33,654 bases of DNA from an uncultured Gammaproteobacteria bacterium. Lineage in GTDB: Bacteria; Patescibacteriota; Patescibacteriia; Patescibacteriales; UBA12465. The stretch spans positions 1 through 33,654 of the forward strand of contig CAZHYP010000002.1 in the NCBI GenBank assembly GCA_964536885.1. Direction: 5' to 3'. Under the pieces are notes generated by a model. That model saw only the letters and a program-made list of their open reading frames with translations. It searched no databases and was not told where the DNA came from. Of this stretch, positions 10,400 through 29,722 are shown one piece after another; position 1 is the stretch's first letter; each line of letters starts with the position of its first letter. A program made the translations under genes and the position numbers.

Positions 10400-10402
10400 A
10401 TG

Positions 10403-10484
10403 TGCGGGCGGAGAGACTCGAACTCTCACGGGTTGCCCCGCTAGCTCCTAAGGCTAGTGCGTCTACCAATTTCGCCACGCCCGC
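10403..10484 (-). tRNA. tRNA-Leu (anticodon TAG)
   Basis: Class II tRNA on the reverse complement: acceptor GCGGGCG/CGCCCGC, anticodon stem-loop CTAGC-CTTAGGA-GCTAG, long variable arm, T-arm GAGAG-TTCGAGT-CTCTC, discriminator A. Confidence 0.85.
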
Positions 10485-10563
10485 GTGAGATTATCTTATA
10501 TGATAATTCGTTAATTGTAAAGATTGTGATATAATAATAAAAAATAACTCTAAAAATATTAAT

Positions 10564-12966
10564 ATGAAAAAAATTTCGTTCATTAAGTTTTTTAAGGAGC
10601 TCACAATTTTTGACGTTCCTTCGGTTGGTGGAAAAAACGCTTCGCTTGGCGAGATGTATCGTCGTTTATCCGACAAAGGAATCAATATTCCTAACGGATT
10701 TGCGACCACCGCTGAGGCTTATCGCTACTTTTTAGAAAGCACTGGCCTTAAAAATAAAATTAAAGAAATTCTATCTGATCTTGATACGCACAATATTAAG
10801 AATTTAATGAAACGCGGCGCCACAGTGCGTAAACTTATTTTGGAAACTGAGCTGCCGGAAGATTTTAAAAAAGCGATTTTAACCGCTTATCGTAAACTAT
10901 CTGCTGAGAGTAAAGTAAAGAATTTAGACGTTGCGGTTCGTTCATCGGCAACTGCTGAGGATTTGCCGGATGCTTCTTTCGCTGGGCAACAAGAAAGCTT
11001 CTTAAACGTTGTGGGTGAAAAGGCTTTAATTCACGCCGTTCGAATGTGTATCGCTTCCTTATTTAATGATCGAGCAATCTCTTATCGCGCTGATAAGGGT
11101 TTTGATCACTTTTCAATTGCTCTTTCGGTTGGTGTGCAAAAAATGGTGCGCTCTGATTTAGGCGCCTCTGGTGTAATGTTTACTATTGATACCGAATCCG
11201 GTTTTAAAAATGCGGTTCTTATTAATTCCATTTATGGTTTAGGTGAAAATATGGTTCAGGGTCGAGTTAATCCTGATGAGTTTTATGTTTTTAAACCAAC
11301 CATGGCAATTGTTTATAAATCAATTGGCAAAAAGGCCCTGAGAATGGTTTATGACGCAAAATCTAGATTAGCAGTTAAAAATATTCCCGTTCCTCATGAT
11401 CAACAAATAAAACAATCAATTACTGATGAACAAGTAAAACAATTAGCTGCCTGGGCAATGTTAATTGAAACCCATTATAAAAGACCAATGGATATTGAAT
11501 GGGCTTATGATGGAAAATCAAAAAAACTTTATATTGTTCAAGCACGACCAGAAACTGTTGAGAGTATTAAAGATCGAAATTTTTTGGAACGCTATGTAAT
11601 GAGTAAAAAGGGATCAGTAATTATTAGTGGTCAGAGTGTTGGCAGTCGAATCGGTAGTGGTACGGCTAATAAAATAATGAGTATTCGTGACATTAATAAA
11701 TTTAAAAAGGGCGATGTTTTGGTTACTGATATGACCGATCCGGACTGGGAACCAATCATGAAAATTGCTTCGGCGATTGTTACCGATAAAGGAGGAAGAA
11801 CCTGTCACGCCGCTATTGTGTCTCGTGAACTAGGTATTCCTTGTGTGGTTGGCACTAATAATGGTTCTACCAAAATAAAAACCGGAACCGCAGTTACCGT
11901 ATCTTGTGCCGAAGGAGATTTAGGCTTTGTTTATGAGGGTAAAATTCCGTTTAAAGTTGAACGAACAAATATTAAAGATATCAAACGCCCTAAAACAAAA
12001 ATAATGATGAATATTGCTGAACCAGATTTAGCTTTTTCTTGTGCTCAAACTCCTAACGATGGTGTTGGACTAGCTCGTTTGGAATTTATTATTAATAATT
12101 ATATTAAAATTCATCCTCTAGCACTACTTAATTATAATAATTTAAAAGACAAGGCGGCTAAAAAGAAAATCGATGAACTAACAGAGGGCTATAAGAAAAA
12201 ATCTGATTATTTTGTTGATCGTTTGGCCCAGGGAGTGGCGATGATTGCTTCCGCTTTTTATCCTAAAGATGTAATTGTTCGTTTGTCAGATTTTAAAACT
12301 AATGAATATGCTAATTTAATTGGCGGACGAGAATTTGAACCAATTGAATCAAATCCGATGATTGGCTGGCGCGGGGCGAGTCGTTATTATGCTCCTGAGT
12401 TTTTACCAGCCTTTGAACTAGAGTGCCAAGCGCTCAAGAGAGTTCGTGATGAGTTTGGTCTTAAAAATTTAAAGGTTATGATTCCCTTCTGCCGTACTGT
12501 TGAAGAAGGCAAAAAGGTTTTAAGTATCATGGCGGCAAACGGCTTGAAGCGCGGAGTAAATGGCTTAGAAGTTTATGTGATGGCTGAGATTCCTGCCAAT
12601 GTTATTCTAGCGGAAGAGTTTTGTAAAATATTTGATGGTTTTTCAATCGGATCCAATGACTTAACCCAGCTTGTTTTAGGAATTGATCGTGATGCTGGAA
12701 CCCTGAAGATTGAAGGGGTTTCCAATGAAAAGAACGAAGCCGTTAAAACTCTAATTAGGTCATTAATCGCTACTGCTAAAAAGAATCACCGCAAGGTTGG
12801 TATTTGTGGTCAGGGACCAAGCGACTTCCCTGAATTTGCTCAGTTCTTGGCTGATAACGAAATCGATAGTATTTCGTTAATTCCTGACACGGTATTAAAG
12901 ACTACTATTGCTTTAAGTAAGAACGAAAAGTCTAAAAAACGGGGATTCCTATCATTTATATTCTAA
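10564..12966 (+). CDS. ppsA: phosphoenolpyruvate synthase (pyruvate, water dikinase)
   Basis: 800 aa. N-terminal ATP-grasp segment VGGKNASLGEM, swivelling phosphohistidine motif GGRTCHAAIVSRELGIPCVVG, C-terminal PEP-utilising TIM barrel (SIGSNDLTQL). Confidence 0.95.
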   Translation: MKKISFIKFFKELTIFDVPSVGGKNASLGEMYRRLSDKGINIPNGFATTAEAYRYFLESTGLKNKIKEILSDLDTHNIKNLMKRGATVRKLILETELPEDFKKAILTAYRKLSAESKVKNLDVAVRSSATAEDLPDASFAGQQESFLNVVGEKALIHAVRMCIASLFNDRAISYRADKGFDHFSIALSVGVQKMVRSDLGASGVMFTIDTESGFKNAVLINSIYGLGENMVQGRVNPDEFYVFKPTMAIVYKSIGKKALRMVYDAKSRLAVKNIPVPHDQQIKQSITDEQVKQLAAWAMLIETHYKRPMDIEWAYDGKSKKLYIVQARPETVESIKDRNFLERYVMSKKGSVIISGQSVGSRIGSGTANKIMSIRDINKFKKGDVLVTDMTDPDWEPIMKIASAIVTDKGGRTCHAAIVSRELGIPCVVGTNNGSTKIKTGTAVTVSCAEGDLGFVYEGKIPFKVERTNIKDIKRPKTKIMMNIAEPDLAFSCAQTPNDGVGLARLEFIINNYIKIHPLALLNYNNLKDKAAKKKIDELTEGYKKKSDYFVDRLAQGVAMIASAFYPKDVIVRLSDFKTNEYANLIGGREFEPIESNPMIGWRGASRYYAPEFLPAFELECQALKRVRDEFGLKNLKVMIPFCRTVEEGKKVLSIMAANGLKRGVNGLEVYVMAEIPANVILAEEFCKIFDGFSIGSNDLTQLVLGIDRDAGTLKIEGVSNEKNEAVKTLIRSLIATAKKNHRKVGICGQGPSDFPEFAQFLADNEIDSISLIPDTVLKTTIALSKNEKSKKRGFLSFIF

Positions 12967-14384: not shown

Positions 14385-14804
14385 TTAAGGAGTGACCGAG
14401 GCGCCACCAGTTCCGTTGCTAGCAAATGGTAAATATTTAAAGACAGAGTAAGTTATAGCGTAAGCAGCTAAGACAATGATAATACCGATCACGGAGTTTT
14501 TAATAGAACCTTTAGCGGCGTCAATTTCTTTTTCATTCCCTTGAGACATCATCCATTTAAAGCCTGCTAAAATTGTTAAAACCAAAAAGACAACACCTAA
14601 GAAACCAAGAACCACCTGAATAATAACTGATATTATAGTGGCTAAATTTGAACTACCCGCCAACCCAGCGGCGCCCGCTAGAGCTTCGTCTTGGGCATCT
14701 AGGCTGTCGGTTTTTAGGCTCGCCGCTTTAATAAATGAAGCTAAACTGAATTGAGTAATAAATAAAAAAATGAAAGCCTTTATTTTGTTAAATTTATTTA
14801 TCAT
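14385..14804 (-). CDS. VirB2/TrbC-like two-helix pilin paralogue P6
   Basis: 139 aa. Signal peptide ending IKA/AS, variable segment, TM1, loop GFKWMMSQGNEKEIDAAK, TM2. Overlaps P5 by 4 nt. Confidence 0.6.
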   Translation of the reverse strand: MINKFNKIKAFIFLFITQFSLASFIKAASLKTDSLDAQDEALAGAAGLAGSSNLATIISVIIQVVLGFLGVVFLVLTILAGFKWMMSQGNEKEIDAAKGSIKNSVIGIIIVLAAYAITYSVFKYLPFASNGTGGASVTP

Positions 14805-15211
14805 ATTTTTGAAATAAAGTAAGTCTTAATAAAGAACCAAACAGCATAAGAAGCGATAACAACAACCAAACCAATAACGGCTCTAGTTACCGAATCTTTG
14901 GCTTTCTCTACTTGTGATTCATTGCCCTGAGCAGTCATCCACTGATATCCAGACATGATTGTAATCGCCAAGAAAATAATACCTAAAATACTTAAGGCGA
15001 CACTAATAACAAGTCCTAAAGTGGAGGCCAAAGTGGTTTCAGTCGCGGTTTGTGAATATGGGCCATAACCAGTAGCAGCGTTGTTAAGACGATCGATTGG
15101 TGAAGCCTTACTCTTTAAAAGTGTTGCATCAGCTGAAAATACTAATCCCGGAACAATTAGAATTACTGTTAAAAAGAAAACGTTTAGCCAAGATTTAAAT
15201 TTTTTAACCAT
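14801..15211 (-). CDS. VirB2/TrbC-like two-helix pilin paralogue P5
   Basis: 136 aa. Signal peptide, variable segment, TM1, loop GYQWMTAQGNESQVEKAK, TM2. Confidence 0.6.
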   Translation of the reverse strand: MVKKFKSWLNVFFLTVILIVPGLVFSADATLLKSKASPIDRLNNAATGYGPYSQTATETTLASTLGLVISVALSILGIIFLAITIMSGYQWMTAQGNESQVEKAKDSVTRAVIGLVVVIASYAVWFFIKTYFISKI

Positions 15212-15215
15212 ATTA

Positions 15216-15605
15216 TTAATTAAAGATTCTTAACAAAAAGATTGTTAAAGCGTATCCACCTATTATAAAAATTAGACCAATAATAACTGTAAATAAATTA
15301 TCTTTAGCTTTGGTTACTTGAGCTTCGTTACCACGAGCGGTCATCCAAGTAAAACCACTATAAATTATAAGAGCAATTGCAATAATTCCTAAAAGTGAAA
15401 AGAAGGCAGTTAAGATTATTCCAACATAACCTTCGACGGCGATTGGATCTTTTTCATAGCCAGATTGTTGTGCCAACGTGGATAAAGAACCTTCTTTATT
15501 AAAGCTATCTTTAAAACTAAAAGCCAACGCTGGCGTGTTAATTAAAAAACTGGCAGTAATTATGATGGCTAATAAATATTTAGTTATTTTTTTTGGGTTT
15601 AACAT
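15216..15605 (-). CDS. VirB2/TrbC-like two-helix pilin paralogue P4
   Basis: 129 aa. Signal peptide ending ALA/FS, TM1, loop GFTWMTARGNEAQVTKAK, TM2. Confidence 0.6.
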   Translation of the reverse strand: MLNPKKITKYLLAIIITASFLINTPALAFSFKDSFNKEGSLSTLAQQSGYEKDPIAVEGYVGIILTAFFSLLGIIAIALIIYSGFTWMTARGNEAQVTKAKDNLFTVIIGLIFIIGGYALTIFLLRIFN

Positions 15606-15606
15606 T

Positions 15607-16011
15607 TTAGTTGGAAGTATTTTCTACTTGTCGTGCTGTATTTTGAAAGGCATTCATTACAAAATATGTTATGCCATAAGCGGAAAGACAAATTATTAAA
15701 CCAACAATTGCTTTTACTATGGTGTTTTTAGCCTTATCAATTTGACTAGTGTTTCCTTGAGCGGTCATCCAATTAACCCCGGCATAAATAGTTAGAATTA
15801 AAAAAATTAAACCCATGAAAGAAAAAATAACGCTAAGAACTAAACCAATATAATATTCTGGAGTCATTTCTGAATTAGCATCGTATCCCATTGTTGGAGC
15901 AACCTCCTTAATTCCGCTATTCTGTTTAAAATCATAAGCCGCACTCGCTGGTGATACGGAGATGGATAAGATGGTAAAATTTAATAATATTAAGGCTAAT
16001 ATTTTTTTCAT
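15607..16011 (-). CDS. VirB2/TrbC-like two-helix pilin paralogue P3
   Basis: 134 aa. Signal peptide ending ASA/AY, TM1, loop GVNWMTAQGNTSQIDKAK, TM2. Confidence 0.6.
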   Translation of the reverse strand: MKKILALILLNFTILSISVSPASAAYDFKQNSGIKEVAPTMGYDANSEMTPEYYIGLVLSVIFSFMGLIFLILTIYAGVNWMTAQGNTSQIDKAKNTIVKAIVGLIICLSAYGITYFVMNAFQNTARQVENTSN

Positions 16012-16019
16012 AGCTTAAA

Positions 16020-16421
16020 CTATTTAGCAAGATTTTGACCAACAAAGGTGGTGATTGAATAAGCAGCCGTAATTATTACCAAACCAATAACAGCATTTAT
16101 TAATAAATCCTTAGCTTTTTCTACTTGAGCAGAATTTCCTTGAGCGGTCATCCACATTATGCCAGCATAAATAGTTAAAATTAAGAAAATAACGCCCACA
16201 AAAGATAAAATTAAACCAACAATACCACCGACTCTGTTAAGTAGCATTGTTCTAATAGATGCCTTTTCCTGCTGATATTGGGAATTATAAAGAGAAACGC
16301 CACTAACTGTTTTAGTAAGGCCCTCAATAGTTGGGTCGGTGGTGGTAGCTAAAGCAGGGCTTATGGAAAATAATGATACCCATAAGATTGCTACCGCTAA
16401 TAAATATTTGGTTAATTTCAT
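16020..16421 (-). CDS. VirB2/TrbC-like two-helix pilin paralogue P2
   Basis: 133 aa. Signal peptide ending ALA/TT, TM1, loop GIMWMTAQGNSAQVEKAK, TM2. Confidence 0.6.
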   Translation of the reverse strand: MKLTKYLLAVAILWVSLFSISPALATTTDPTIEGLTKTVSGVSLYNSQYQQEKASIRTMLLNRVGGIVGLILSFVGVIFLILTIYAGIMWMTAQGNSAQVEKAKDLLINAVIGLVIITAAYSITTFVGQNLAK

Positions 16422-16521
16422 ATGGTTTTTTTACGGCTCTAAATCTAAAGAATTTAGGTTTAAGGCGGCAACCCCCATAAAAATATGAGGGGACCGTTTT
16501 TCTGAAATCGATTTCGGAAAA

Positions 16522-16926
16522 CTAGTTAGCAGAACCTGTTCCAGTTGTAGTAACAGTAACAGCCTGAGTAAGAACCCACTTAGCAATACCCCAAGCAGAT
16601 AAAATGATGACGATACCAACGATACCGGCGCTCATTAATTTCTTAGCTTCAGTGATTTTGTCATCACTTCCACCAGCGGTCATCCATTTGAAACCTCCCA
16701 TTAAGATAATAACTACAGCAACTAAGCCTAAGAAAAGCATAGCGGTGTTAATTAAGTTAGTAGCAAGAGCAACTGGAGATTTTTCACCTAATTTTAAATT
16801 GGTAGATACAACGTTTCCGCCTAAGTCAGTGTTAACGTCTAAAGTACCAGCAGCTAAAACAGCTGGAGCTACTACGAAAGACATAACGATGGCCAAGGAT
16901 AATAAGTGTTTTGCAAATTTTTTCAT
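16522..16926 (-). CDS. VirB2/TrbC-like two-helix pilin paralogue P1 (candidate major subunit)
   Basis: 134 aa. Signal peptide ending VLA/AG, TM1, loop GFKWMTAGGSDDKITEAK, TM2, Thr/Gly-rich tail. Strong SD AAAGGTGGTG and its own promoter. Confidence 0.65.
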   Translation of the reverse strand: MKKFAKHLLSLAIVMSFVVAPAVLAAGTLDVNTDLGGNVVSTNLKLGEKSPVALATNLINTAMLFLGLVAVVIILMGGFKWMTAGGSDDKITEAKKLMSAGIVGIVIILSAWGIAKWVLTQAVTVTTTGTGSAN

Positions 16927-16973
16927 AATTCACCACCTTTCTAGTTTTTAATATTTTTTTATTTTATGTAATT

Positions 16974-17002
16974 ATTTTAGCATAACCATAGTAACAAGAC
17001 AA
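16974..17002 (-). promoter_or_regulatory. sigma70-like promoter of the pilin-like array
   Basis: Minus strand: TTGTCT, 17-nt spacer ending TGC, TAAAAT. About 45 nt upstream of the P1 ATG. Confidence 0.55.
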
Positions 17003-17022
17003 ATAAACAAAGGGTATATTTC

Positions 17023-17364
17023 TTAAATGTCAAGGTAGTGTTTAAGTCTGATAGCGCGCCTGTCTTTTGCTTCGATGATTATCAAATCCAATCTGGTTTG
17101 TTGGTATTTAAAATGGTGCAAACGACAGTATTCTCGGAGCACCAAACGGAGTCTGGAAACCTGATTGGCCCCTAAAACTGTAAATGGTGGGCCTAAATTG
17201 GTTCTAGTCTTTACCTCAAAACCAACAACAACTTCTTTAAAGGCAATAATATCCATTTCCTTGTGCCCGTTTCGCCAATTTGTTTCTAAAATAGTATAAC
17301 CCTTGTTTTCCAAATATTTTTTAGCCACCCTCTCTCCCCAATTGCCAATAATTTTTTTATCCAT
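17023..17364 (-). CDS. yraN: YraN-family (UPF0102) endonuclease-like protein
   Basis: GNWGERVAKKYLENKGYTILETNWRNGHKEMDIIAF...VGFEVKTR matches the YraN pattern. Start placed at ATG 17364 (MDKKIIG), just after the upstream terminator. Confidence 0.8.
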   Translation of the reverse strand: MDKKIIGNWGERVAKKYLENKGYTILETNWRNGHKEMDIIAFKEVVVGFEVKTRTNLGPPFTVLGANQVSRLRLVLREYCRLHHFKYQQTRLDLIIIEAKDRRAIRLKHYLDI

Positions 17365-17365
17365 A

Positions 17366-17393
17366 TAAAAACCCCTCACAATGGAGGGGTTTT
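17366..17393 (-). terminator. intrinsic terminator abutting the yraN start codon
   Basis: Minus strand: CCCCUC-CAUUGU-GAGGGG followed by UUUUUAUAUG, where AUG is the yraN start. Confidence 0.6.
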
Positions 17394-19038: not shown

Positions 19039-19440
19039 TTATTTGGTTGTGTTAACAGCGCCCGTTTTTTCATCCCATTTTACGCCCAGTCCACCAAAAA
19101 ACAAATTAATAATTAAGACGCTGGAGAAAACTAAAATTAAACCCATAACCGCCGCTTTGATTATTTCCATTCCTTTCTTTACATTGTTTTGATTGCCGGC
19201 TGATATTAAAAAAGTTACTCCGCCATAGACAAACATAACAAGAGACAGTGTTCCGACTAACCCTAAAATAATCTGCATTATATAGATAGCGTAATCGCGC
19301 ACATTATTTAAAGTGTAGTCACCACTCGCATATCCAGGATTTGAAGTGTCAACTAAACTAGCCGCTAAACATGAATTAACTAACATCAAAGATGATATTA
19401 AGAAAATTATTATTAACCCGCTTTTTATTGTTTTTTTCAT
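19039..19440 (-). CDS. divergent VirB2/TrbC-like two-helix pilin paralogue P7
   Basis: 133 aa. Signal peptide ending CLA/AS, variable segment, TM1, loop GGVTFLISAGNQNNVKKGMEIIK, TM2. Same architecture as P1-P6 with a degenerate motif. Confidence 0.5.
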   Translation of the reverse strand: MKKTIKSGLIIIFLISSLMLVNSCLAASLVDTSNPGYASGDYTLNNVRDYAIYIMQIILGLVGTLSLVMFVYGGVTFLISAGNQNNVKKGMEIIKAAVMGLILVFSSVLIINLFFGGLGVKWDEKTGAVNTTK

Positions 19441-20932: not shown

Positions 20933-23900
20933 TTATTTGCTTTTAACGTCTTCTAGTTTAACGCTCAGTAGTTTACTAATACCGTCTGATTGCATCGTTA
21001 CTCCGTAAAGGATATTGGCTCGTTTCATTGAGGCGCGGTTATGAGTAATAACGATAAACTGGGTTTGATTAGACAGGTCATCAAGAATCTGAGCTAGGCG
21101 TTCGGAATTGGCTTCATCAAGGGCGGCGTCAACTTCATCTAAAACCACAAACGGTGATGGATTGGCGCTGATAATAGCACAGATAAGAGCAATGGCGGTT
21201 AAAGCACGTTCGCCGCCTGACAGCATTGAAATGGTGCCAATTTTTTTGCCAGGAGGGGTGGCTTGAATTTCGATGCCGGATAATCCCAAAGCATTTCTCT
21301 TTTTAAGTAGTTTAACTTTTCTTAAATTATCAGTGCTTGGATTATTATCGGTTGTTTCAGCTCCTTCAGTGGCCGTCTTTTCTTCTTCAGTTAATTTAAA
21401 TATTTTGGCAGTGCCGCCGTTAAATAAAATTTTGAAGTATTCACTGAACTTTTCCGAAATAATATTAAACTCTCTGTCGAAACGGTCTTTGATGTTAACA
21501 TCAAGTTCGGAAATAATTTTTTCCAGTGATTTAACGGCACTATTTAAGTCATCGGTTTGCTTACTTAAGAAATCGTAGCGCTCTTTAGTCTCGTTAAATT
21601 CTTTTTCGGTTTCAGGATCAATGCCGCCAATCATTTCTAATTGATTTTTGCATTCAGTTAAGCGTTTGTGCCAACGATTAATATCAATTGGCTCTTCAGT
21701 TATTTTATGATTTTTAATCTCCGTTAAACTAAGTTCATCGTTGCGGATATTGTTTTCTAAATCTTCCAATTTAGTTTCTTGACGAGTCGCTTCAATTTTT
21801 AAATCATTAAGTTCAGCAGATAGTGAATTAATTTCGTGTTGAATTTCTTGAAGTCTTTTTTGTAAATCAAACATCTGAGCCTTTTCGGCTTCTTTAGCTT
21901 CGTTTAATTTAGTAATTTTAGCTTCTAGGTCATCAATTTCAACTTGAATCTTTTCTAATTTAGAATTTATTTCCGCTTTTTCTTTTTCAATACCTGAGGC
22001 ATCAAACTTAATCTGGCTTTTAGCAATTTTTACTTCAATGTCGGCGATTTCTTTTTTGACTTGAGCTTCTTTTTCTTGAAGAAGACGCATTCTCTCACGA
22101 GCCGAAGACATCTTTAAGCGATATTCATTAATTTTATTTTGAATATTTTGTTTTTTCTCTTGTAGTTCTCTGGTTTGTCCCTTAGGATATAACTCTTTAA
22201 TTTCAGTTTCTAAATTATTTATTTGTTTAGCGAGATTATTTTTTTCTGCTTCTAAACTTGAGGCATCAAACTTAATTTGGCTTTTGGCAATTTTTACTTC
22301 AAGGTCGGCAATTTCGCGGTCGCTTTGTTTCTTCTTGTCTTCAAGTAATCTAAGACGTTCACCGGTGCCAGACAGCTTTAAACGTTCTTCGTTTAATTGA
22401 TTGTTTAAAGTTTGACGTTCTTCGCTCAAGCTAATAATTTCATCTTGAATTTCTTTAACACGATTTATCTTGTCTGCATTTTCATCGGCTAAGTGTTCTC
22501 TAATTTGATCTTGAAAATTATTTTTTGCCTCATCAAGTAAGGTTTTCATTTTAACCAAGTCGCTTTCTTTTTTTATTTCTTCTAAACGAGCCAAGAATTC
22601 ATCGACAATGCGACTAATTTCTTCACGATTATTTTTAACTACTCCTGGTTTTTTTAATTCATTTTTTATAGCCTCTACTTCTTGGTTTAATTTGTTTAAA
22701 TGAGTGGTAACAACATTTAATTTCTCTCTTAAATTATTTTCAATATCACGATTATTATCTTTTTGTAGAGTAGTAATTTCTTCATTTAAAGCCTCGAGTT
22801 CGGCAATTAACTCTTCTTTTTTATTATTAAGCCAAGAAACATCATATTGTCCTTGAGCTTCTAAATTGGCTTCAATAGTCGCTTCAATCTTAGTAATTTG
22901 ACGCGCAAAATCATTTTTAGAATTTTCTTTACGTTCAATTTCTCGACGCACTTCATAAGCCTGATTAATTTCTTTCTCAATGACTGTTAATTCTTCTTGA
23001 TAAGATTTTTCTTCTTGGTTGTTTTGAGTATATTCTAGAGAAGCAATTTCGCTGCTAATCTTTTCTAAATCAGAATTTAGTTCACTATGTTTATTATTAA
23101 GCCAGGAAATATCAAATTGCCCCTGAGTTTCTAGTTGAACCTCGAGCTCGGCTTGTAATTTTGCTAGTGATTTATGTAAAGAATTTTTTTCAGCCTCAAG
23201 CTCTTTAAGACGAGGTTGCAGGGTGTTTATCTCTTGGAAATTATTAGTATTTTTGATGCGATTTAATTCTTCATTTAATTTGTTTAGTTTATCTTCGCGG
23301 TCAATTTTAATTTTTTCTAGTTCTAAAAATTTGGCGTTAGCGGCCTCTAATTTAGTATTAGCTTCTTGATATAAGAAATGATAATAATTAAATTGATTGC
23401 TAACCAGTTCGGCTTCAATTTCACTGCGGCGTTTTAATTTTTCAACTTGTCTAGTTAAACTTTTTAAGCGCGGACGAATTTCAGATAACAACATTTCCAC
23501 TTGTTGCAAGTTTTCATAAGAGCCCTCTAATTTATTAAGAGACATTTCTCTTTTAATTTGAAACTGTTTAACGCCGGTCGCTTCATCAAAAAAATCTTTA
23601 CGTTCAGAGGCGCTAGTGTTTAAAAAGTTTTCTACCATGCCCTGACCAATAACGCTGTAAGTTTTTTGACCAACACTGGCTTTAGCAAGCAACATTTGAA
23701 TATCAGCCAAGCGCACCCTCTTATTATTAATCAAATATTCACTGTCGCCACTACGATAAATACGACGAGTAATGATTATTTGCTCTGCTTTTAAAAATTC
23801 CCGAACTAGGTCGAAATCGTTTTCTTCTTTTGGATCTTCGCTGTCGATTTTGTTTTCATCAAAATTACGTAAGGCACTTTTATCAGCATTGTTTAAAATT

Positions 23901-24166
23901 AAAGAGACCTCAGCAAAGCTCAGTTGATTTTTTTGATCAGACCCAGAGAATATTACGTCTTCACTTTTTTTACCTCTTAAAGTTTTTAAACTTTGTTCAC
24001 CGAGTACCCAACGAATGGAGTCAGCGATATTTGATTTGCCAGAGCCATTTGGTCCAACAATGGAAGTTAGTCCTCTTTTTCCGCCAGCAATTAAACCGGG
24101 GAAAATTAAACTATTTTTATTAGCAAAGGATTTAAATCCTTGAATTTCTAATTTTTCTAAATACAT
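20933..24166 (-). CDS. smc: SMC chromosome condensation ATPase, apparently hinge-less
   Basis: 1077 aa. N-head LEIQGFKSF...IVGPNGSGKSNIADSIRWVLGEQS. C-head signature LSGGERALTAIAL, Walker B FVVLDEVDAALDE, and ITHNRASM. About 330-aa heptad-rich arms on each side of KKPGVV (aa 505-510). No globular hinge seen. Confidence 0.85.
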   Translation of the reverse strand: MYLEKLEIQGFKSFANKNSLIFPGLIAGGKRGLTSIVGPNGSGKSNIADSIRWVLGEQSLKTLRGKKSEDVIFSGSDQKNQLSFAEVSLILNNADKSALRNFDENKIDSEDPKEENDFDLVREFLKAEQIIITRRIYRSGDSEYLINNKRVRLADIQMLLAKASVGQKTYSVIGQGMVENFLNTSASERKDFFDEATGVKQFQIKREMSLNKLEGSYENLQQVEMLLSEIRPRLKSLTRQVEKLKRRSEIEAELVSNQFNYYHFLYQEANTKLEAANAKFLELEKIKIDREDKLNKLNEELNRIKNTNNFQEINTLQPRLKELEAEKNSLHKSLAKLQAELEVQLETQGQFDISWLNNKHSELNSDLEKISSEIASLEYTQNNQEEKSYQEELTVIEKEINQAYEVRREIERKENSKNDFARQITKIEATIEANLEAQGQYDVSWLNNKKEELIAELEALNEEITTLQKDNNRDIENNLREKLNVVTTHLNKLNQEVEAIKNELKKPGVVKNNREEISRIVDEFLARLEEIKKESDLVKMKTLLDEAKNNFQDQIREHLADENADKINRVKEIQDEIISLSEERQTLNNQLNEERLKLSGTGERLRLLEDKKKQSDREIADLEVKIAKSQIKFDASSLEAEKNNLAKQINNLETEIKELYPKGQTRELQEKKQNIQNKINEYRLKMSSARERMRLLQEKEAQVKKEIADIEVKIAKSQIKFDASGIEKEKAEINSKLEKIQVEIDDLEAKITKLNEAKEAEKAQMFDLQKRLQEIQHEINSLSAELNDLKIEATRQETKLEDLENNIRNDELSLTEIKNHKITEEPIDINRWHKRLTECKNQLEMIGGIDPETEKEFNETKERYDFLSKQTDDLNSAVKSLEKIISELDVNIKDRFDREFNIISEKFSEYFKILFNGGTAKIFKLTEEEKTATEGAETTDNNPSTDNLRKVKLLKKRNALGLSGIEIQATPPGKKIGTISMLSGGERALTAIALICAIISANPSPFVVLDEVDAALDEANSERLAQILDDLSNQTQFIVITHNRASMKRANILYGVTMQSDGISKLLSVKLEDVKSK

Positions 24167-24245
24167 AGGGTAAGGCGTTGCACTTAGGCAAACATTGTTT
24201 TATGATAGTTATATAATAAACGTTTATCACTTAAAAGACAACCAG

Positions 24246-25604: not shown

Positions 25605-27767
25605 CTAGAGACTCTTTATATCTGTATATAAGTTTTTTAGATGTTCATCTGACATGTCTAATAGAGGCTCATACATAAAAGAATTTAAGTGAATGTTTTC
25701 TGGTGTCATTAAATTAACCTGATCAAGTATTTTTATTTTTTCTTCTTCTGTGGTTCCATATTCCTGTTTAAATCTGTCAAATAACACGCGGGTCTGATAT
25801 TTAGCGATTGGTGTTTTATCTGATATTCTACTTAATATATATTTTTCAGCCTGCAATCTTATTGCCATTGATAATATTATTTTATTTTCTAGGTTTATTC
25901 CATTTGTTGCCGTCAAACAATCATCAGCTAATTCAAAAATTAGCTCTATTACTTTTTTTGTTTTATTTGTAAAATTTATCGTTAAATTTGGAAAATTTTG
26001 TTTATATATATCTTCTAAATCACCTTTTGTTATATCTTCCGACGTATCTTTTATGTGTAATACAGAAGTGAGTGTTAAAAAAGATGTGTCCGCTGCTCCT
26101 TTTGTATATTCTATAATATTTCTAACAAATGCTAATGAAGCTATAAACTTTTTGTCTTGGTCAAGATGCCCCATGAAATCCTCAAAAGGTTTAAAATGTT
26201 CAGCTCTTACAAGTTTTGTTTCATCCTTTGTTTTTTCAACCATTAAACAATGTCCATCTCTGGATATATTTAATCTCTCTTTTGCTGTTCTAAAAAAATC
26301 AAAATTATGTGTTAAAATTATGTGAAAAAAATGATCACTTTCTGTCATCTCTTTTAGGTATGCTATGATTGCATATTTATTTTGATAATCAAATGAATCG
26401 GCAATATCATCAATTATAAATAAGGTTTTTTGGTTATCCTTCATTCTGGCTTGTACTTCAAATATTATATTCAACAAGTATAAGGCTCTTTTTTCTCCGC
26501 CACTTAATATTTTTATTAATTCTTTTTGTTCAACTGGAGCTTCGTCTCCTCCATCATTTTCTTTAAATACAAAAGAAATAGTTGGCGTATCCGTCCCAAG
26601 TATGGCATCTTCTTGATTTTGTATCATTAATCTAAATGGAACAAAAAATCTTTTATTATATGTATCTATAACTCTTGCCCAATCAGTAGCCTCTAACTTC
26701 GCTTGTTTTATGATTTCATCAATATCCTTTTTACTTTCAGTGTATTTATTTAATAAATTTGTGTATAGTTCGGTGTTGCTTTTTAAATATGATATCCAAA
26801 GTTTTTGTCTAAAGCCGGCAATATTTTCTAATTCAGTAATAATTTTTTCATTTTCGATTAAGTATGTTCTAAAATTTCTTAACTCAGCATTTTTTATTAA
26901 AGCTTTTTCTATATCATTAAATGCTTTAACGAGTGCCGGGTTATTTAAAATTGATGTTTTTTCTTCTTCAATAACTTTTTCTAATTCTTCTTCTGATCCG
27001 ATTTGTTTGTCATCAGCATCTTTGCCATGTAAAAAAACTGAGTGTTCTGCAGCAAAAAAACCATTTTCTACAAGATTCTTTGCTATTGTGGACGCATTAT
27101 TATGATTAAAAACACCTTTTTTAAAGTATTGAGATGCTTCCACTAGCTCATTATATTTATTAATATAGTCTAAGAGCTTAGTTTTAAAATCTTTTGTTTC
27201 TAAAAAAGACAGAACTTTTTCATTAAAAATTTCTTTATATACTATATCTGAAAACAAAGGCACTGTTTTGTCGGTAACTCTTGGTTGAGTACTTTCAAGC
27301 GCCACTAAAAAAGATTCGGTGTTATGAATAAATGCATCAGATATTTCATTCTCTATTCCGCTCTTAAGTCCACTCAATTGTTTTAATTCTGTTATTAACT
27401 TATCTTTTTCTTTGTTTATTTCTTCGTGTATTAAATCGTACTTATCTTTAAGGGTTTTATTTACTAATAGTGTAGATAGCTTTTCTGATTTAAAGAATTC
27501 GTTGTATGAGTCTATTACAAAGACTTCACCTGGCAATAGGTTTTGTCCGTTTTCTTTTTTAATATCTCTTTTTGGTATTCTCGAGGGAAATATTCTGTCT
27601 TTAGAAAGAGCATTGTTCTCTAAATCAGAAAAAGTATTTGCGAATGATGTTTTCATTGCTCCATTTGGGGCATAAATTATAAAAGAATGTCCATCTGAAA
27701 AATCAAATGATGTTTCTAATTTTTTTATTCCGTAGCAATTTTCTAGTAATAAGTTTAATTTTTCCAT
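25605..27767 (-). CDS. PrrC/RloC-like (AAA_13-type) ABC ATPase with degenerate Walker A and an uncharacterised C-terminal domain
   Basis: 720 aa. Walker A-like YAPNGAMKTS (aa 32-41), about 380 aa of helical insertion, ABC signature LSGGEKRALYLL (421-432), Walker B/D-loop LFIIDDIADSFD (449-460), H-loop ILTHNFDFF (484-492), then about 220 aa of C-terminal domain. Confidence 0.6.
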   Translation of the reverse strand: MEKLNLLLENCYGIKKLETSFDFSDGHSFIIYAPNGAMKTSFANTFSDLENNALSKDRIFPSRIPKRDIKKENGQNLLPGEVFVIDSYNEFFKSEKLSTLLVNKTLKDKYDLIHEEINKEKDKLITELKQLSGLKSGIENEISDAFIHNTESFLVALESTQPRVTDKTVPLFSDIVYKEIFNEKVLSFLETKDFKTKLLDYINKYNELVEASQYFKKGVFNHNNASTIAKNLVENGFFAAEHSVFLHGKDADDKQIGSEEELEKVIEEEKTSILNNPALVKAFNDIEKALIKNAELRNFRTYLIENEKIITELENIAGFRQKLWISYLKSNTELYTNLLNKYTESKKDIDEIIKQAKLEATDWARVIDTYNKRFFVPFRLMIQNQEDAILGTDTPTISFVFKENDGGDEAPVEQKELIKILSGGEKRALYLLNIIFEVQARMKDNQKTLFIIDDIADSFDYQNKYAIIAYLKEMTESDHFFHIILTHNFDFFRTAKERLNISRDGHCLMVEKTKDETKLVRAEHFKPFEDFMGHLDQDKKFIASLAFVRNIIEYTKGAADTSFLTLTSVLHIKDTSEDITKGDLEDIYKQNFPNLTINFTNKTKKVIELIFELADDCLTATNGINLENKIILSMAIRLQAEKYILSRISDKTPIAKYQTRVLFDRFKQEYGTTEEEKIKILDQVNLMTPENIHLNSFMYEPLLDMSDEHLKNLYTDIKSL

Positions 27768-27768
27768 A

Positions 27769-28845
27769 TTATCTTATAAATCTTATCTGTAGATTTAATT
27801 TTATATATAATTCACCATTTTCTTGATAAATTTTACCAAAGCCATGTTTATGAGTGCCCCCTGTTTCGAATTTTGTATTTTTAAATAAATAATCTTGAAA
27901 AGAGTCCATATTATAGAGATGATAACAGACCACATCCCCATCTTCTTTTACTATTAAATACCCACCATGAGCTGTATTAAGCCCATCCCATTCTTTGCTG
28001 GGCATCATACCAAGAGCAACTGCACGCAAAAAAGTTTTTATTTTATATTCAAAATCACTTGCTGTTAAATCGTATTTATCTTTTAAATATTGGTTACTTG
28101 CAAGGAGTTCGCAAATTGTTTGTAAATTTGAACTCTCTCCTCTATAAAAACAATTTAAAGCTGTAGCAATTATTTCTGGAAATACTATATCTATTTTTCT
28201 TAGATTATTCTTGAATTTAGAATTTGCCATTGAGTAAAATGATAAGATTCCTCCAGATGCTTCAATTGCTTTAATTTTATCTACAACCTTTGACCCTCCG
28301 TCAATTTGGTTTATTTCAGTATAGTTACCAATAAAATTATTTATTTTATAAATGAAATTTGTGGCCCCAGAAGCATTTAAAAGTGTAGCTGGCGCCCCGA
28401 GCATAGATTTTATACTAAATCCCAGATCTACAATCATAGGAGAGCCACACTCTCTTACTTTTGCTGTTAAGTCTGCTTTATGGCTATTTCCAGCTTTTAT
28501 TTGTGAGCACCCTAATTCTGTCATTAATTCTTCTGCCAACGGAACAGAAAATGCGCCAGTAGATTCTTTTATTGTTTCAAATATTCTACTTATGCAAGAC
28601 TTAATTTTTGTTTGGTTTACAGCACCAATAATTGTTTTATCTAATTTTGTTATTTCAATATTTTCACCATTGAACTTATATAATTTTCCAGTCTGGCCAG
28701 GCTCTTCTCTTAGAACCCCGATAACAGGGTAATGTTTGTCATTTATTCTATTTAATTCTGAGTCAGCAAAAAAAAGCTTTCTTTCATCAAGAACTTTTAG
28801 AAAAGTATAAATCTCGCTCCATTCACCCTTATTACCCTTTATCAT
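27769..28845 (-). CDS. type II restriction endonuclease, probably HpaII family
   Basis: 358 aa. The N-terminus MIKGNKGEWSEIYTFLKVLDERKLFFAD resembles, from memory, the N-terminus of HpaII-family enzymes. Overlaps the upstream C5-MTase gene by 14 nt. Family call unverified. Confidence 0.5.
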   Translation of the reverse strand: MIKGNKGEWSEIYTFLKVLDERKLFFADSELNRINDKHYPVIGVLREEPGQTGKLYKFNGENIEITKLDKTIIGAVNQTKIKSCISRIFETIKESTGAFSVPLAEELMTELGCSQIKAGNSHKADLTAKVRECGSPMIVDLGFSIKSMLGAPATLLNASGATNFIYKINNFIGNYTEINQIDGGSKVVDKIKAIEASGGILSFYSMANSKFKNNLRKIDIVFPEIIATALNCFYRGESSNLQTICELLASNQYLKDKYDLTASDFEYKIKTFLRAVALGMMPSKEWDGLNTAHGGYLIVKEDGDVVCYHLYNMDSFQDYLFKNTKFETGGTHKHGFGKIYQENGELYIKLNLQIRFIR

Positions 28846-29722
28846 ATTTCTTTAAGGTGTTGATGATTTGTTTAGCGTAGGCTGTTATAGCCGGAACAGC
28901 AACGGCATTGCCTAGCTGTTTCATGGCTTGGGAGTTGGTAACAGGAAAAATATAGTCTTCTGGAAAGCCCATCATTCTTTTTCCCTCTGTTGGCATTAGT
29001 CTTTTTACTTCGCCATCCACTATGTATGAATCCCAATTATGTCTATCTCCTATTTTAGATCCTCGCCCACCAACTCTTAATGTATATCCTATCTTCTTTT
29101 CGCATTTCCCTTTGAAAATATCGTCCATAGTCTTTTTTAATTCTGTTGGTTCTGGAAATTCGAATTTAATATCTTTATCTTTGAAACCAACCATAAACAA
29201 ACGTGGTCTATGTTGTGGCACACCGAAATCTGAAGCTTTAACTATTTTGTAATAAAAAGAATAGCCAAGGTCTTTTTCTATAGTTTTTTTGATAGTGGCA
29301 AAAGTTTTCCCGTCATCATGGTTTAGTAAATGTCTGACATTTTCAAGAAAAAATGCTTTTGGTTTTTTTTCTTTTATAATGTCAGCTATGTGAAAAAACA
29401 AGTTTCCACGGTCATCTTTAAAGCCCTTTTTAAAGCCAGATTGACTAAATGGCTGACAAGGAAAGCCTCCGCAAATAACATCAAAATCAGGTATATCTTT
29501 AGGAATTACCTTAGTTATATCTCCAACAAATTTATCTTCTTTAAATATTTTTGGTGATTTTTTTTCGAAGTTAGCTTTATAGGTTTTTCTGGCTGATTCG
29601 TCCCATTCGGACACAAAAACACATTCAGCCCCAGCATCATCAAAGGCTAAATGAAAACCACCTATACCAGCAAATAAATCAATAAATTTATAGCTTTTCT
29701 TATTTTTTATGGTCTTTTTCAT
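28832..29722 (-). CDS. DNA (cytosine-5)-methyltransferase
   Basis: 296 aa with C5-MTase motifs in canonical order: I FIDLFAGIGGF, IV GGFPCQPFS, VI FLENV, VIII QHRPRLFMVGF, IX/X MGFPEDY...QLGNAVAVP. Compact target-recognition region. Confidence 0.9.
   Translation of the reverse strand: MKKTIKNKKSYKFIDLFAGIGGFHLAFDDAGAECVFVSEWDESARKTYKANFEKKSPKIFKEDKFVGDITKVIPKDIPDFDVICGGFPCQPFSQSGFKKGFKDDRGNLFFHIADIIKEKKPKAFFLENVRHLLNHDDGKTFATIKKTIEKDLGYSFYYKIVKASDFGVPQHRPRLFMVGFKDKDIKFEFPEPTELKKTMDDIFKGKCEKKIGYTLRVGGRGSKIGDRHNWDSYIVDGEVKRLMPTEGKRMMGFPEDYIFPVTNSQAMKQLGNAVAVPAITAYAKQIINTLKKYDKG

What the first reader, a model, noticed from the sequence alone, without database searches (positions are those of the whole stretch)
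20933..24166. SMC with canonical heads and full-length arms but no hinge domain
The head halves are unmistakably SMC: GPNGSGKSN, LSGGERALTAIAL, VLDEVDAALDE. Everything between about aa 180 and 840 reads as uninterrupted charged, heptad-rich coiled coil. The only helix breaker near the midpoint is KKPGVV (aa 505-510, nt 22628-22660). It divides the rod into two arms of about 325 aa each, which is the arm length of canonical bacterial SMC (B. subtilis, for example, has about 330-aa arms plus a 150-170-aa glycine-rich hinge). The protein is about 110 aa shorter than typical SMC and has no glycine-rich globular segment and no Rad50-type CxxC hook. Without the hinge, the normal dimerisation and DNA-gating interface is missing. 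The protein would have to dimerise differently (via heads and kleisin, or an arm-tip bundle) or act as a folded-back monomer.
Basis: partly seen in the sequence, partly recalled or inferred. Interest (0 to 1): 0.65.

Follow-up and report, generated by a model that had tools for sequence, protein, structure and literature searches.

The report
Hinge-less SMC protein of Patescibacteria
This is the chromosome-organising SMC ATPase of a Falkowbacteria-like ultrasmall bacterium, in which the globular "hinge" that normally joins two SMC molecules has been replaced by a bare helical hairpin, a state shared by many relatives, so a textbook domain seems to be dispensable in nature.

Summary
ORF 20933-24166 (minus strand, 1077 aa) has complete SMC head motifs and passes NCBI's bacterial SMC model. 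Residues 186-914 are predicted all-helical. No hinge signal appears with Pfam, with my own hinge HMM (-0.4 bits against 240-283 for hinge-bearing relatives) or with a profile-profile comparison. It is not an assembly artefact: contigs from three independent studies span the centre without indels, and over 100 homologues share the architecture.

- The chain turns at aa 533-536 (ESDL), not at KKPGVV, which is a kink 28 aa earlier.
- The canonical arm length is not inherited. It comes from a paired duplication of a 90-aa N-arm module and an 88-aa C-arm module. Relatives of about 890 aa carry one copy of each.
- The hinge-less state is widespread in Patescibacteria (Falkow-, Buchanan-, Uhr-, Kerfeldbacteria), in length classes of about 750, 890 and 1080 aa. 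Hinge-bearing sisters are only 56-58% identical.

Most likely this is the working chromosomal Smc, dimerising through ATP-engaged heads plus the conserved hairpin tip or aligned arms. The dimerisation mode is inferred, and ScpA/ScpB could not be checked. A hinge-less SMC cluster was reported in 2025 for marine bacteria, but I found no report for Patescibacteria.

The parts
20933..24166 (-). smc-like ORF, 1077 aa plus stop
   Evidence: TIGR02168 SMC_prok_B scores 622.8 bits (cut-off 567.35).
23612..24166 (-). N-terminal half of the ABC head (aa 1-185), with a variable insertion at aa 98-127
   Evidence: Aligns to the B. subtilis Smc head (5xg3, E 1e-95). Walker A, R64 and Q175 are invariant.
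24029..24055 (-). Walker A motif GPNGSGKSN (aa 38-46)
   Evidence: Invariant in 142 relatives.
22571..23611 (-). N-terminal arm helix (aa 186-532)
   Evidence: AF2 predicts all helix with short breaks.
22961..23197 (-). N-arm module, copy 1 (aa 324-402), with the motif LETQGQFDISWLNNK
   Evidence: Internal repeat with z=16. The motif is invariant (G349, D352, W355).
22691..22927 (-). N-arm module, copy 2 (aa 414-492), with the motif LEAQGQYDVSWLNNK
   Evidence: The DNA core is 86% identical to copy 1 (D3).
22637..22654 (-). KKPGVV kink (aa 505-510). It is a break in the N-arm, not the turn.
   Evidence: AF2 break at aa 505-512 / 506-509, mirrored by a break at aa 560-563. The sequence here is not conserved in the clade.
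22478..22639 (-). Tip hairpin (aa 510-563): helix 510-532, turn, helix 537-559. This segment stands in place of the hinge.
   Evidence: Conserved hydrophobics F524, L525, L528, L537, A547, F551, I555. A related turn motif occurs in all hinge-less classes.
22559..22570 (-). Predicted chain reversal, KESD (aa 533-536), the start of the motif ESDLxKxK
   Evidence: AF2 break in both models. It is the centre of symmetry of the paired breaks.
21425..22558 (-). C-terminal arm helix (aa 537-914)
   Evidence: TIGR02168 model positions 681-1181 align to aa 544-1071.
22148..22402 (-). C-arm module, copy 1 (aa 589-673), with ERLRLLE...KIAKSQIKFDAS
   Evidence: Internal repeat with z=17. AF2 break at aa 629-635.
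21890..22138 (-). C-arm module, copy 2 (aa 677-759), with ERMRLLQ...KIAKSQIKFDAS
   Evidence: The 75-nt DNA core is 88% identical to copy 1 (D1). AF2 break at aa 715-725.
20933..21424 (-). C-terminal half of the ABC head (aa 915-1077), with an acidic insertion at about aa 928-955
   Evidence: aa 957-1075 align to the B. subtilis head at 131.7 bits.
21185..21223 (-). ABC signature motif LSGGERALTAIAL (aa 982-994)
   Evidence: S983-E986 are invariant.
21113..21145 (-). Walker B and D-loop, VLDEVDAALDE (aa 1008-1018)
   Evidence: D1010, E1011, A1014, L1016 and D1017 are invariant, and so is the H-loop H1042.

Best explanation
This gene is the chromosomal Smc (prokaryotic condensin ATPase) of a Falkowbacteria-like member of the Patescibacteria. 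It is a natural hinge-less derivative.

Shown:
- The heads are orthologous to bacterial Smc, with every ATPase motif intact.
- The gene sits in the housekeeping smc/rplS neighbourhood.
- The roughly 170-aa hinge is replaced by a roughly 55-aa helix-turn-helix tip that reverses the chain at aa 533-536.
- Each arm carries two copies of a module of about 90 aa whose conserved breaks face each other: QGQFDxSWLNNK in the N-arm and KSQIKFDAS in the C-arm. Relatives of about 890 aa have one copy of each.
- Hinge-less relatives fall into length classes of about 750, 890 and 1080 aa.

Inferred:
- The protein still works as an ATP-driven DNA-organising motor. Two molecules are joined by ATP-dependent head engagement and presumably a ScpA kleisin at the highly conserved neck.
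- At the far end they are held by the conserved hydrophobic tip hairpins packing into a four-helix bundle, by the arms zipping side by side into a rod, or by both.
- The paired duplication lengthened the arms by one step of about 90 aa, from the roughly 250-aa regime to the roughly 340-aa regime. This matches the periodic arm-length rule found experimentally for B. subtilis Smc. The same work showed that the hinge fold can be replaced by another dimeriser.
For: Identity as Smc:
- TIGR02168 scores 622.8 bits, above its cut-off.
- The best PDB match is the B. subtilis Smc head, E 1e-95.
- Walker A, Q-loop, signature, Walker B and H-loop residues are invariant in 142 relatives.
- Synteny TsaE-rplS-cmk-smc is conserved in a 979-kb relative. 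The 886-aa Kerfeldbacteria homologue lies in rnc...smc-rpsP-KH-trmD.

No hinge.

Real and under selection:
- 120 of 120 closest homologues (57-91% identity) are 992-1110 aa (118 of them 1066-1110 aa) without PF06470.
- 120 of 120 homologues of an 895-aa relative also lack it.
- Independent contigs from three studies span the centre with 0-1 mismatches.

Hairpin geometry:
- Helix breaks are symmetric about aa 534-536.
- Foldseek matches are Smc arm fragments and chemoreceptor hairpins.

Modules:
- Internal repeats score z=16-17.
- L001 (880 aa, 56% identity) lacks one N and one C module.

Tip and neck:
- The tip is more conserved than the flanking arm, 0.64-0.67 against 0.45-0.55, and the neck scores 0.91-0.95.
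- A shared turn motif occurs across all hinge-less classes.

Literature (PMC5344682):
- Natural arm lengths have modes at 163, 238 and 341 aa, in steps of about 100 aa.
- The B. subtilis hinge can be replaced by the Rad50 zinc hook with normal growth.
Against: - No dimer model or experiment exists, so tip or arm dimerisation is inference only.
- The hydrophobic fraction at the tip (0.30-0.35) is only modestly above the arm average.
- ScpA and ScpB were not found in the window or in any held flank, and whole genomes could not be scanned. The kleisin partner is therefore assumed.
- I could not exclude a second, hinge-bearing SMC in the same genome.
- Head-based NJ trees are poorly supported, so the order of events (hinge loss, then duplication) is plausible but not proven.
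- AF2 modelled the heads poorly in the full-length run (pLDDT 30-50).
Confidence: 0.7

Rival explanations
1. The tip does not dimerise. Two molecules meet only at the heads, through ATP engagement and/or a kleisin bridge, giving an open, two-pronged complex or a monomeric folded rod. Such a complex would clamp DNA at the heads and could not form a closed SMC ring. It would work more like an ABC-type DNA clamp or tether than a ring-shaped loop extruder.
For: - No known dimerisation device (hinge, zinc hook) is present.
- The hydrophobic content of the tip is only slightly raised.
- The tip sequence outside the turn motif varies between length classes.
Against: - Arm length follows discrete classes and was restored by a matched duplication in both strands. 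This is hard to explain if the arms were mere appendages.
- The tip and the paired arm breaks are conserved.
- In B. subtilis a dimeriser at the arm end was retained in all functional constructs (PMC5344682).
Confidence: 0.22
2. It is not the housekeeping condensin. It would instead be an SMC-like paralogue with another role, such as a defence ATPase of the Lamassu or Wadjet type, or a RecN- or Rad50-like repair protein.
For: - PADLOC gives partial hits to mad3 (1.4e-51), LmuB (2.3e-23) and JetC.
- A candidate defence ATPase and an R-M system lie 1.4 kb away.
Against: - Those hits cover head segments only and are far weaker than TIGR02168 (623 bits). Rad50 and RecN models score far below their cut-offs.
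- No LmuA, JetABD or Mre11/SbcD partner is adjacent.
- The defence islet is absent from the syntenic locus of a relative that keeps smc.
- The neighbourhood is the classical smc region.
- Head identity to B. subtilis Smc is about 40-45%.
Confidence: 0.05
3. Artefact or decay. The hinge would have been lost through mis-assembly of a repetitive coiled-coil region, or the gene would be a degenerating pseudogene in a reduced genome.
For: - The gene contains internal repeats with 86-88% identical DNA cores.
- One homologue (P0022, 992 aa) lacks a single C-arm module and may itself be a collapse.
Against: - Unitigs from three unrelated studies cover 21845-24167, 21688-24003 and 21818-23866 with no indels or joints.
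- The ORF is intact, and ATPase motifs are invariant across hundreds of clusters.
- Arm motifs are as conserved as the heads.
- The repeats flank the centre rather than span it.
Confidence: 0.02

Closest known systems
Bacterial Smc of Smc-ScpAB (B. subtilis Smc, TIGR02168 / COG1196)
   Same: - Heads align over their full length and all ATPase motifs are present.
- It has a long antiparallel intramolecular coiled coil of about 340-355 aa per strand.
- The head-proximal neck is conserved.
- It lies in the housekeeping smc/rplS-trmD neighbourhood.
- It passes the NCBIfam equivalog cut-off.
   Different: - The roughly 170-aa glycine-rich hinge (PF06470) is absent and is replaced by a roughly 55-aa helix-turn-helix tip.
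- The arms contain a duplicated module of about 90 aa on each strand.
- Extra insertions occur in both head halves.
Engineered B. subtilis Smc(Zh) and Mini-Smc (Buermann et al. 2017, PMC5344682)
   Same: - Both are Smc without its hinge fold, and the engineered forms still work.
- Function tolerates arm resizing only in discrete regimes about 90-100 aa apart. The natural 750, 890 and 1080-aa classes and the 90/88-aa module pair fit that rule.
   Different: The engineered protein carries a Rad50 CxxC zinc hook as dimeriser. The natural protein has no Cys pair and no recognisable dimerisation domain.
Hinge-less SMC cluster from ocean metagenomes, assigned to Actinomycetes (Environ Microbiome 2025, PMC12153180)
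   Same: SMC heads plus a coiled coil, no hinge and no CxxC. It was described as a cohesive, abundant environmental clade.
   Different: - It is assigned to a different lineage (marine Actinomycetes, against Patescibacteria from wastewater, bioreactors and groundwater).
- That paper does not describe arm modules, length classes or the tip.
- Sequence relatedness to this family was not tested here, because no sequences were at hand.
Rad50 / SbcC
   Same: ABC head, long antiparallel coiled coil and a small apex instead of a globular hinge. They appear among the Foldseek matches.
   Different: - The apex of Rad50 is a CxxC zinc hook, which is absent here.
- Rad50 NCBIfam models score 30-54 bits against cut-offs of 700-1087.
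- There is no Mre11/SbcD neighbour.
RecN
   Same: An SMC-like ATPase without a hinge. From my own knowledge of the D. radiodurans RecN structure, its coiled-coil tips are thought to join two monomers.
   Different: - RecN is about 550 aa with short arms.
- TIGR00634 scores 27 bits against a cut-off of 408.
- RecN heads are much more distant (E 7e-07).
Chemoreceptor (MCP) cytoplasmic hairpin
   Same: A long helical hairpin. From my own knowledge, two of them pack into a four-helix bundle. It is among the best structural matches of the tip fragment (2ch7, 3zx6).
   Different: It is unrelated in sequence and function. The matches are weak (E>0.03) and show shape only.

Membership tests
Bacterial Smc (Smc-ScpAB condensin; TIGR02168, COG1196) | ABC-type head with Walker A, Q-loop, signature motif, Walker B/D-loop and H-loop | tested here: met
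   GPNGSGKS, Q175, LSGGE, DEVDAALD and H1042 are present and invariant in relatives. The B. subtilis head matches at E 1e-95.
Bacterial Smc (Smc-ScpAB condensin; TIGR02168, COG1196) | Whole-protein score above the curated equivalog cut-off | tested here: met
   622.8 bits against 567.35.
Bacterial Smc (Smc-ScpAB condensin; TIGR02168, COG1196) | Long intramolecular antiparallel coiled-coil arm | tested here: met
   AF2 predicts all helix for aa 186-914, with breaks symmetric about aa 534-536. Foldseek matches Smc arm fragments 5nnv and 5xg2.
Bacterial Smc (Smc-ScpAB condensin; TIGR02168, COG1196) | Central globular hinge dimerisation domain (PF06470) | tested here: not met
   There is no Pfam hit at E<=10. 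My own hinge HMM gives -0.4 bits against 240-283 for positive controls. hhalign gives 0.1% against 96.9% for the control. No strands are predicted.
Bacterial Smc (Smc-ScpAB condensin; TIGR02168, COG1196) | Kleisin ScpA and ScpB encoded in the genome | not testable with these tools
   None was found in the 33.6-kb window or in the flanks of 84 loci. Whole genomes of the clade cannot be scanned here.
Bacterial Smc (Smc-ScpAB condensin; TIGR02168, COG1196) | Housekeeping genomic context (rnc-smc-ftsY / rpsP-trmD-rplS region) | tested here: met
   smc is adjacent to cmk-rplS here and in L081. The context is rnc...smc-rpsP-KH-trmD in Kerfeldbacteria.
Rad50 / SbcC | CxxC zinc hook at the coiled-coil apex | tested here: not met
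   Only C839 and C996 are present and there is no CxxC.
Rad50 / SbcC | Family model score, and an Mre11/SbcD nuclease partner nearby | tested here: not met
   Rad50 models score 30-54 bits against cut-offs of 700-1087. No nuclease neighbour is present.
RecN | TIGR00634 match, about 550 aa with a short coiled coil | tested here: not met
   27.3 bits against a cut-off of 407.85, and the protein is 1077 aa.
Defence SMC-like ATPases (Lamassu LmuB, Wadjet JetC) | Full-length match to the family model, and partner genes (LmuA; JetA/B/D) adjacent | tested here: not met
   Only partial head or coil hits are found (LmuB 81 bits, JetC 35 bits). No partners are adjacent.
Hinge-less environmental SMC (PMC12153180) | SMC heads, coiled coil, no hinge, no CxxC | tested here: met
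   compared with the description read.
Hinge-less environmental SMC (PMC12153180) | Membership of the same monophyletic (marine, Actinomycetes-assigned) cluster | not tested
The source names of this family are Patescibacteria.

The most novel reading that the evidence does not exclude
Across a large part of the Patescibacteria the Smc hinge has been lost, possibly more than once, in favour of a bare helical hairpin, and the arms are resized in matched modules of about 90 aa. On this reading nature has repeated the Smc(Zh)/Mini-Smc experiments. A globular hinge, with its DNA-binding and putative gate functions, would be dispensable for the core Smc activity. The hairpin tips, or the zipped arms, would constitute a previously undescribed SMC dimerisation mode.
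Probability: 0.4. Interest if true: 0.85.

Novelty: new variant of a known kind. Interest (0 to 1): 0.7.

Why it matters
The hinge is one of the three textbook parts of every SMC protein. It has been proposed as the dimerisation site, a DNA-binding site and, in cohesin, a DNA entry gate.

A large natural radiation of bacteria appears to have a sole Smc that lacks it, while keeping strictly tuned arm lengths. That would give a natural test of which SMC functions really need a hinge. It also supports the view that arm geometry is the constrained feature, not the dimerisation fold.

The shortest versions (about 750 aa) are compact targets for structural and single-molecule work. There are two practical consequences. 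Hinge-seeded searches, such as the one used to survey arm lengths in PMC5344682, miss this group by design. NCBI's pipeline names many of these proteins only "AAA family ATPase".

Tried and rejected
- **Vestigial hinge.** Pfam at E<=10, my own HMM with --max and hhalign all found nothing, while the controls were positive.
- **QGQFDxSWLNNK as a remnant of the coiled-coil/hinge junction.** Rejected. Hinge-bearing relatives carry the same motif (IGKQNLSWLE) about 85 aa before their hinge, so it is an arm feature.
- **KKPGVV as the turn.** Rejected in favour of aa 533-536.
- **Self-BLAST for the repeats** returned only the identity hit. A local pairwise alignment with shuffled controls worked instead.
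- **Head-only NJ phylogeny to count hinge losses.** Bootstrap support was too weak. The long class plus L001 and P0128 was recovered in 24% of replicates. Hinge-bearing and hinge-less sets were never monophyletic (0/100 each), so the number of losses is left open.
- **ScpA/ScpB search.** Probes recalled from memory, run against all ORFs of the held loci, gave no hits. The literature search also gave nothing.
- **Full-length AF2** gave poor heads and a low pTM. The Foldseek result only confirms the SMC family.
- **Metatranscriptome contigs** give only weak, low-depth support for transcription.
Full report
**The object.** The window is AT-rich (about 34% GC). It carries ordinary housekeeping genes of an ultrasmall bacterium: YidC, bactofilin, TrxB, Lgt, PEP synthase, cmk, rplS, TsaE and LspA, plus arrays of T4SS-pilin-like genes. 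ORF 20933..24166 on the minus strand encodes 1077 aa. GPNGSGKSN starts at aa 38, LSGGERALTAIAL at aa 982, VLDEVDAALDE at aa 1008 and KKPGVV at aa 505. The protein has only two cysteines and no CxxC.

**Is it an SMC?** Pfam gives SMC_N at 2.9e-47. NCBIfam's bacterial SMC equivalog TIGR02168 scores 622.8 bits, above its cut-off of 567.35. Its positions 681-1181, which begin just after the hinge in the model, align to aa 544-1071. Rad50, RecN and arcadin models score far below their cut-offs. The best solved relatives are the B. subtilis and Geobacillus Smc heads (E 1e-95 to 4e-81), and no hinge chain is hit. Walker A, the Q-loop, the signature motif, Walker B, the D-loop and the H-loop are invariant in an alignment of 142 relatives.

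**Is the hinge really absent?** Four independent tests agree.
- Pfam shows no SMC_hinge hit even at E<=10.
- The middle 244 aa searched alone against PDB sequences give only noise.
- Among 53 representatives of the nearest 50%-identity clusters, PF06470 is found in exactly ten (best E 1.5e-31), all 995-1035 aa long. These show textbook hinge sequences. An HMM built from them and run without filters scores those ten at 240-283 bits and canonical Firmicutes/Chloroflexi SMCs at 34-136 bits. It scores every other protein at 5.6 bits or less, and the query at -0.4.
- Profile-profile comparison of the tip, or of the whole arm region, with the hinge profile gives 0.1% probability. The weakest canonical control gives 96.9%.

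AlphaFold2 on the full protein predicts continuous helix from aa 186 to 914 with short breaks and no strand. The aa 405-680 fragment is modelled with mean pLDDT 86.4 as helices only. Its best Foldseek matches are Smc arm fragments (5xg2; 5nnv with TM 0.63), chemoreceptor hairpins, Rad50 and the MukB elbow. None reaches E<=0.001 and none is a globular domain.

**Is it an artefact?** No.
- Twenty public runs from six studies (bioreactor, wastewater, digester) hold the central 1.4 kb.
- Unitigs from three different studies span 21845-24167, 21688-24003 and 21818-23866 with 0-1 mismatches, no indels and no joints.
- All 120 closest homologues (57-91% identity, many independent assemblies) are 992-1110 aa (118 of them 1066-1110 aa) and lack PF06470.

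**Where the chain turns.** The full-length model has helix breaks at aa 344-350, 438-440, 505-512, 533-536, 560-563, 629-635 and 715-725. Three pairs are symmetric about aa 534-536: 439/632 (95 and 96 residues away), 347/720 (187 and 184) and 508/561 (26 and 25). The turn is therefore at KESD (533-536). KKPGVV is a kink 28 residues before it, mirrored by the break at 560-563.

A related turn motif occurs at the centre of every hinge-less length class, while KKPGVV itself is not conserved. The motif is L-E-x-h-x-x-x-[ED]-[DE]-[LIF]-x-x-h-K, which reads ..LEEIKKESDLVKMK.. in the query. Within the clade the tip (aa 511-551) is more conserved than the flanking arm, 0.64-0.67 against 0.45-0.55. F524, L525, L528, L537, A547, F551 and I555 are invariant or nearly so.

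**Paired modules.**
- The N-arm holds two copies of a unit of about 90 aa (aa 324-402 and 414-492; z=16 against shuffles).
- The C-arm holds two copies of a unit of about 88 aa (aa 589-673 and 677-759; z=17).
- Their cores, QGQFDxSWLNNK and KSQIKFDAS, coincide with the paired helix breaks. They are as conserved as the heads (0.85-0.89).
- The closest shorter relatives (L001 at 880 aa and 56% identity, and P0128, P0133, P0136) have one copy of each. L001 lacks about 83 aa in the N-arm and about 89 aa in the C-arm relative to the query.
- The cores keep 86-88% DNA identity within the gene. In P0089 the two C cores are 97% identical in protein. This points to occasional gene conversion between the copies.

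**How widespread it is.** The exhaustive representative search lists the 150 nearest 50%-identity clusters. None has the canonical length of about 1180 aa.
- The complete hinge-less ones fall into length classes of 720-780 aa (43 proteins), 840-920 aa (75) and 1039-1092 aa (10).
- The ten hinge-bearing ones are 995-1035 aa.
- Source names include Candidatus Falkowbacteria, Buchananbacteria, Uhrbacteria, Kerfeldbacteria, Parcubacteria and "Patescibacteria group".
- All 120 homologues of an 895-aa member also lack PF06470.
- Hinge-bearing and hinge-less proteins can be close sisters. L014 (1039 aa, Buchananbacteria, hinge) and L003 (924 aa) are 58% identical. P0142 (1035 aa, hinge) and P0166 (919 aa) are 56% identical. 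Their arms are colinear, including a single IGKQxLSW motif, and the roughly 170-aa hinge is exchanged for a helical segment of about 60 aa.

The hinge-bearing relatives therefore have arms of about 250-260 aa. The query's arm length of about 340-355 aa is a secondary gain by duplication, not retention of the canonical length. Head-only NJ trees place the long class next to 880-896-aa forms, but with weak support. Neither the hinge-bearing nor the hinge-less set was monophyletic in any of 100 bootstraps. The number of losses stays open.

**Context.** In a 979-kb contig of a 62%-identical relative the order TsaE-rplS-cmk-smc-ComM-SBP-pilin is conserved. The 886-aa Kerfeldbacteria homologue, which NCBI names "chromosome segregation protein SMC", lies in rnc...smc-rpsP-KH-trmD, the classical smc region. 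PADLOC hits of the SMC to mad3, LmuB and JetC are partial and weak compared with TIGR02168. This argues for the housekeeping orthologue rather than a defence paralogue.

**Mechanism.** It is established that the ATPase machinery is intact and that the head-proximal neck is the most conserved part of the arms (0.91-0.95). The neck is where the kleisin N-domain binds in B. subtilis Smc, as in PDB entry 3zgx ("kleisin-N SMC interface").

My inference is that two molecules engage through their heads on ATP and are bridged by a kleisin. At the far end they would be held by the conserved tip hairpins packing as a four-helix bundle, by co-aligned arms with the conserved paired breaks as contact or flex points, or by both.

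The literature supports the plausibility of this. In B. subtilis the hinge can be replaced by the unrelated Rad50 zinc hook with normal growth. Arm length is functional only in discrete regimes. Natural modes lie at about 163, 238 and 341 aa, in steps of about 100 aa (PMC5344682). The three natural length classes and the 90/88-aa module pair fit this rule. That survey seeded its sequence collection on hinges, so it would have missed hinge-less proteins.

**Prior knowledge.** Full-text searches found one description of "hinge-less SMC". It is an abundant ocean cluster assigned to Actinomycetes, which lacks both the hinge and CxxC (PMC12153180). Nothing was found for Patescibacteria/CPR. The concept is therefore not new. 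The lineage, its breadth, the homologous hairpin tip and the paired arm modules are, as far as this library shows.

**Limits.**
- No dimer prediction or experiment was possible.
- ScpA/ScpB and a possible second smc could not be looked for genome-wide.
- The genome scan was truncated.
- The trees are weak.
- Evidence for transcription is thin.

Noticed in passing
window 25605-29722 (minus strand): A 720-aa ABC/SMC_N-like ATPase matches the PADLOC candidate defence family PDC-S46 over its full length (E 1e-265). It is followed by an HpaII-type restriction endonuclease and a C5 cytosine methyltransferase. The block is absent from the syntenic rplS-tsaE interval of relative L081, so it looks like an inserted defence islet.
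   Followed up: partly
window 14385-17379 and 19039-19440 (minus strand): A tandem array of small paralogous ORFs (about 118-139 aa). The three scanned (14385-14804, 16020-16421, 19039-19440) match PF18895 (T4SS_pilin). The array is conserved in relative L081, and a bioRxiv paper on the Patescibacteria T4SS (10.1101/2025.01.22.634366) may be relevant.
   Followed up: partly
window 21977-22051 / 22241-22315 and 22820-22863 / 23090-23133: The cores of the two C-arm and the two N-arm modules keep 88% and 86% DNA identity within the gene, although the duplication predates the clade. In homologue P0089 the two C cores are 97% identical in protein. This suggests intragenic gene conversion.
   Followed up: partly
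P0022 (992 aa, homologue): It lacks only the first C-arm module while keeping both N-arm modules. That would give mismatched arms, so it is either a real variant or an assembly collapse between near-identical repeats.
   Followed up: no
L021 (3001-5628), L053 (1289-3490), L057 (3001-5142): Hinge-less SMCs of 720-881 aa sit in MAGs labelled Anaerolineae or plain 'bacterium', and they group near Chloroflexi SMCs in the head tree. Either hinge-less SMCs exist outside Patescibacteria or the bins are mislabelled. Several short-SMC MAGs are also labelled 'uncultured Gammaproteobacteria', which looks wrong.
   Followed up: no
window 21302-21385 (aa 928-955) and 23786-23875 (aa 98-127): Both head halves have clade-specific insertions with low confidence in the model. 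One is an acidic, low-complexity stretch (TEEEKTATEGAETTDNNPSTDN) in the C-head. The other is a variable acidic stretch in the N-head. Both are absent from Bacillus-type Smc.
   Followed up: no
L084 (Kerfeldbacteria, 10001-12661): The 886-aa hinge-less homologue keeps the classical neighbourhood rnc ... smc - rpsP - KH(KhpA) - trmD. This is useful as positional evidence of orthology.
   Followed up: yes
window 20933-24166, model mb460601a953e: Full-length AlphaFold2 gave very low confidence for the heads (pLDDT 30-50), although they are about 40-45% identical to solved Smc heads. The likely cause is the shallow alignment of closely related sequences, not disorder.
   Followed up: no
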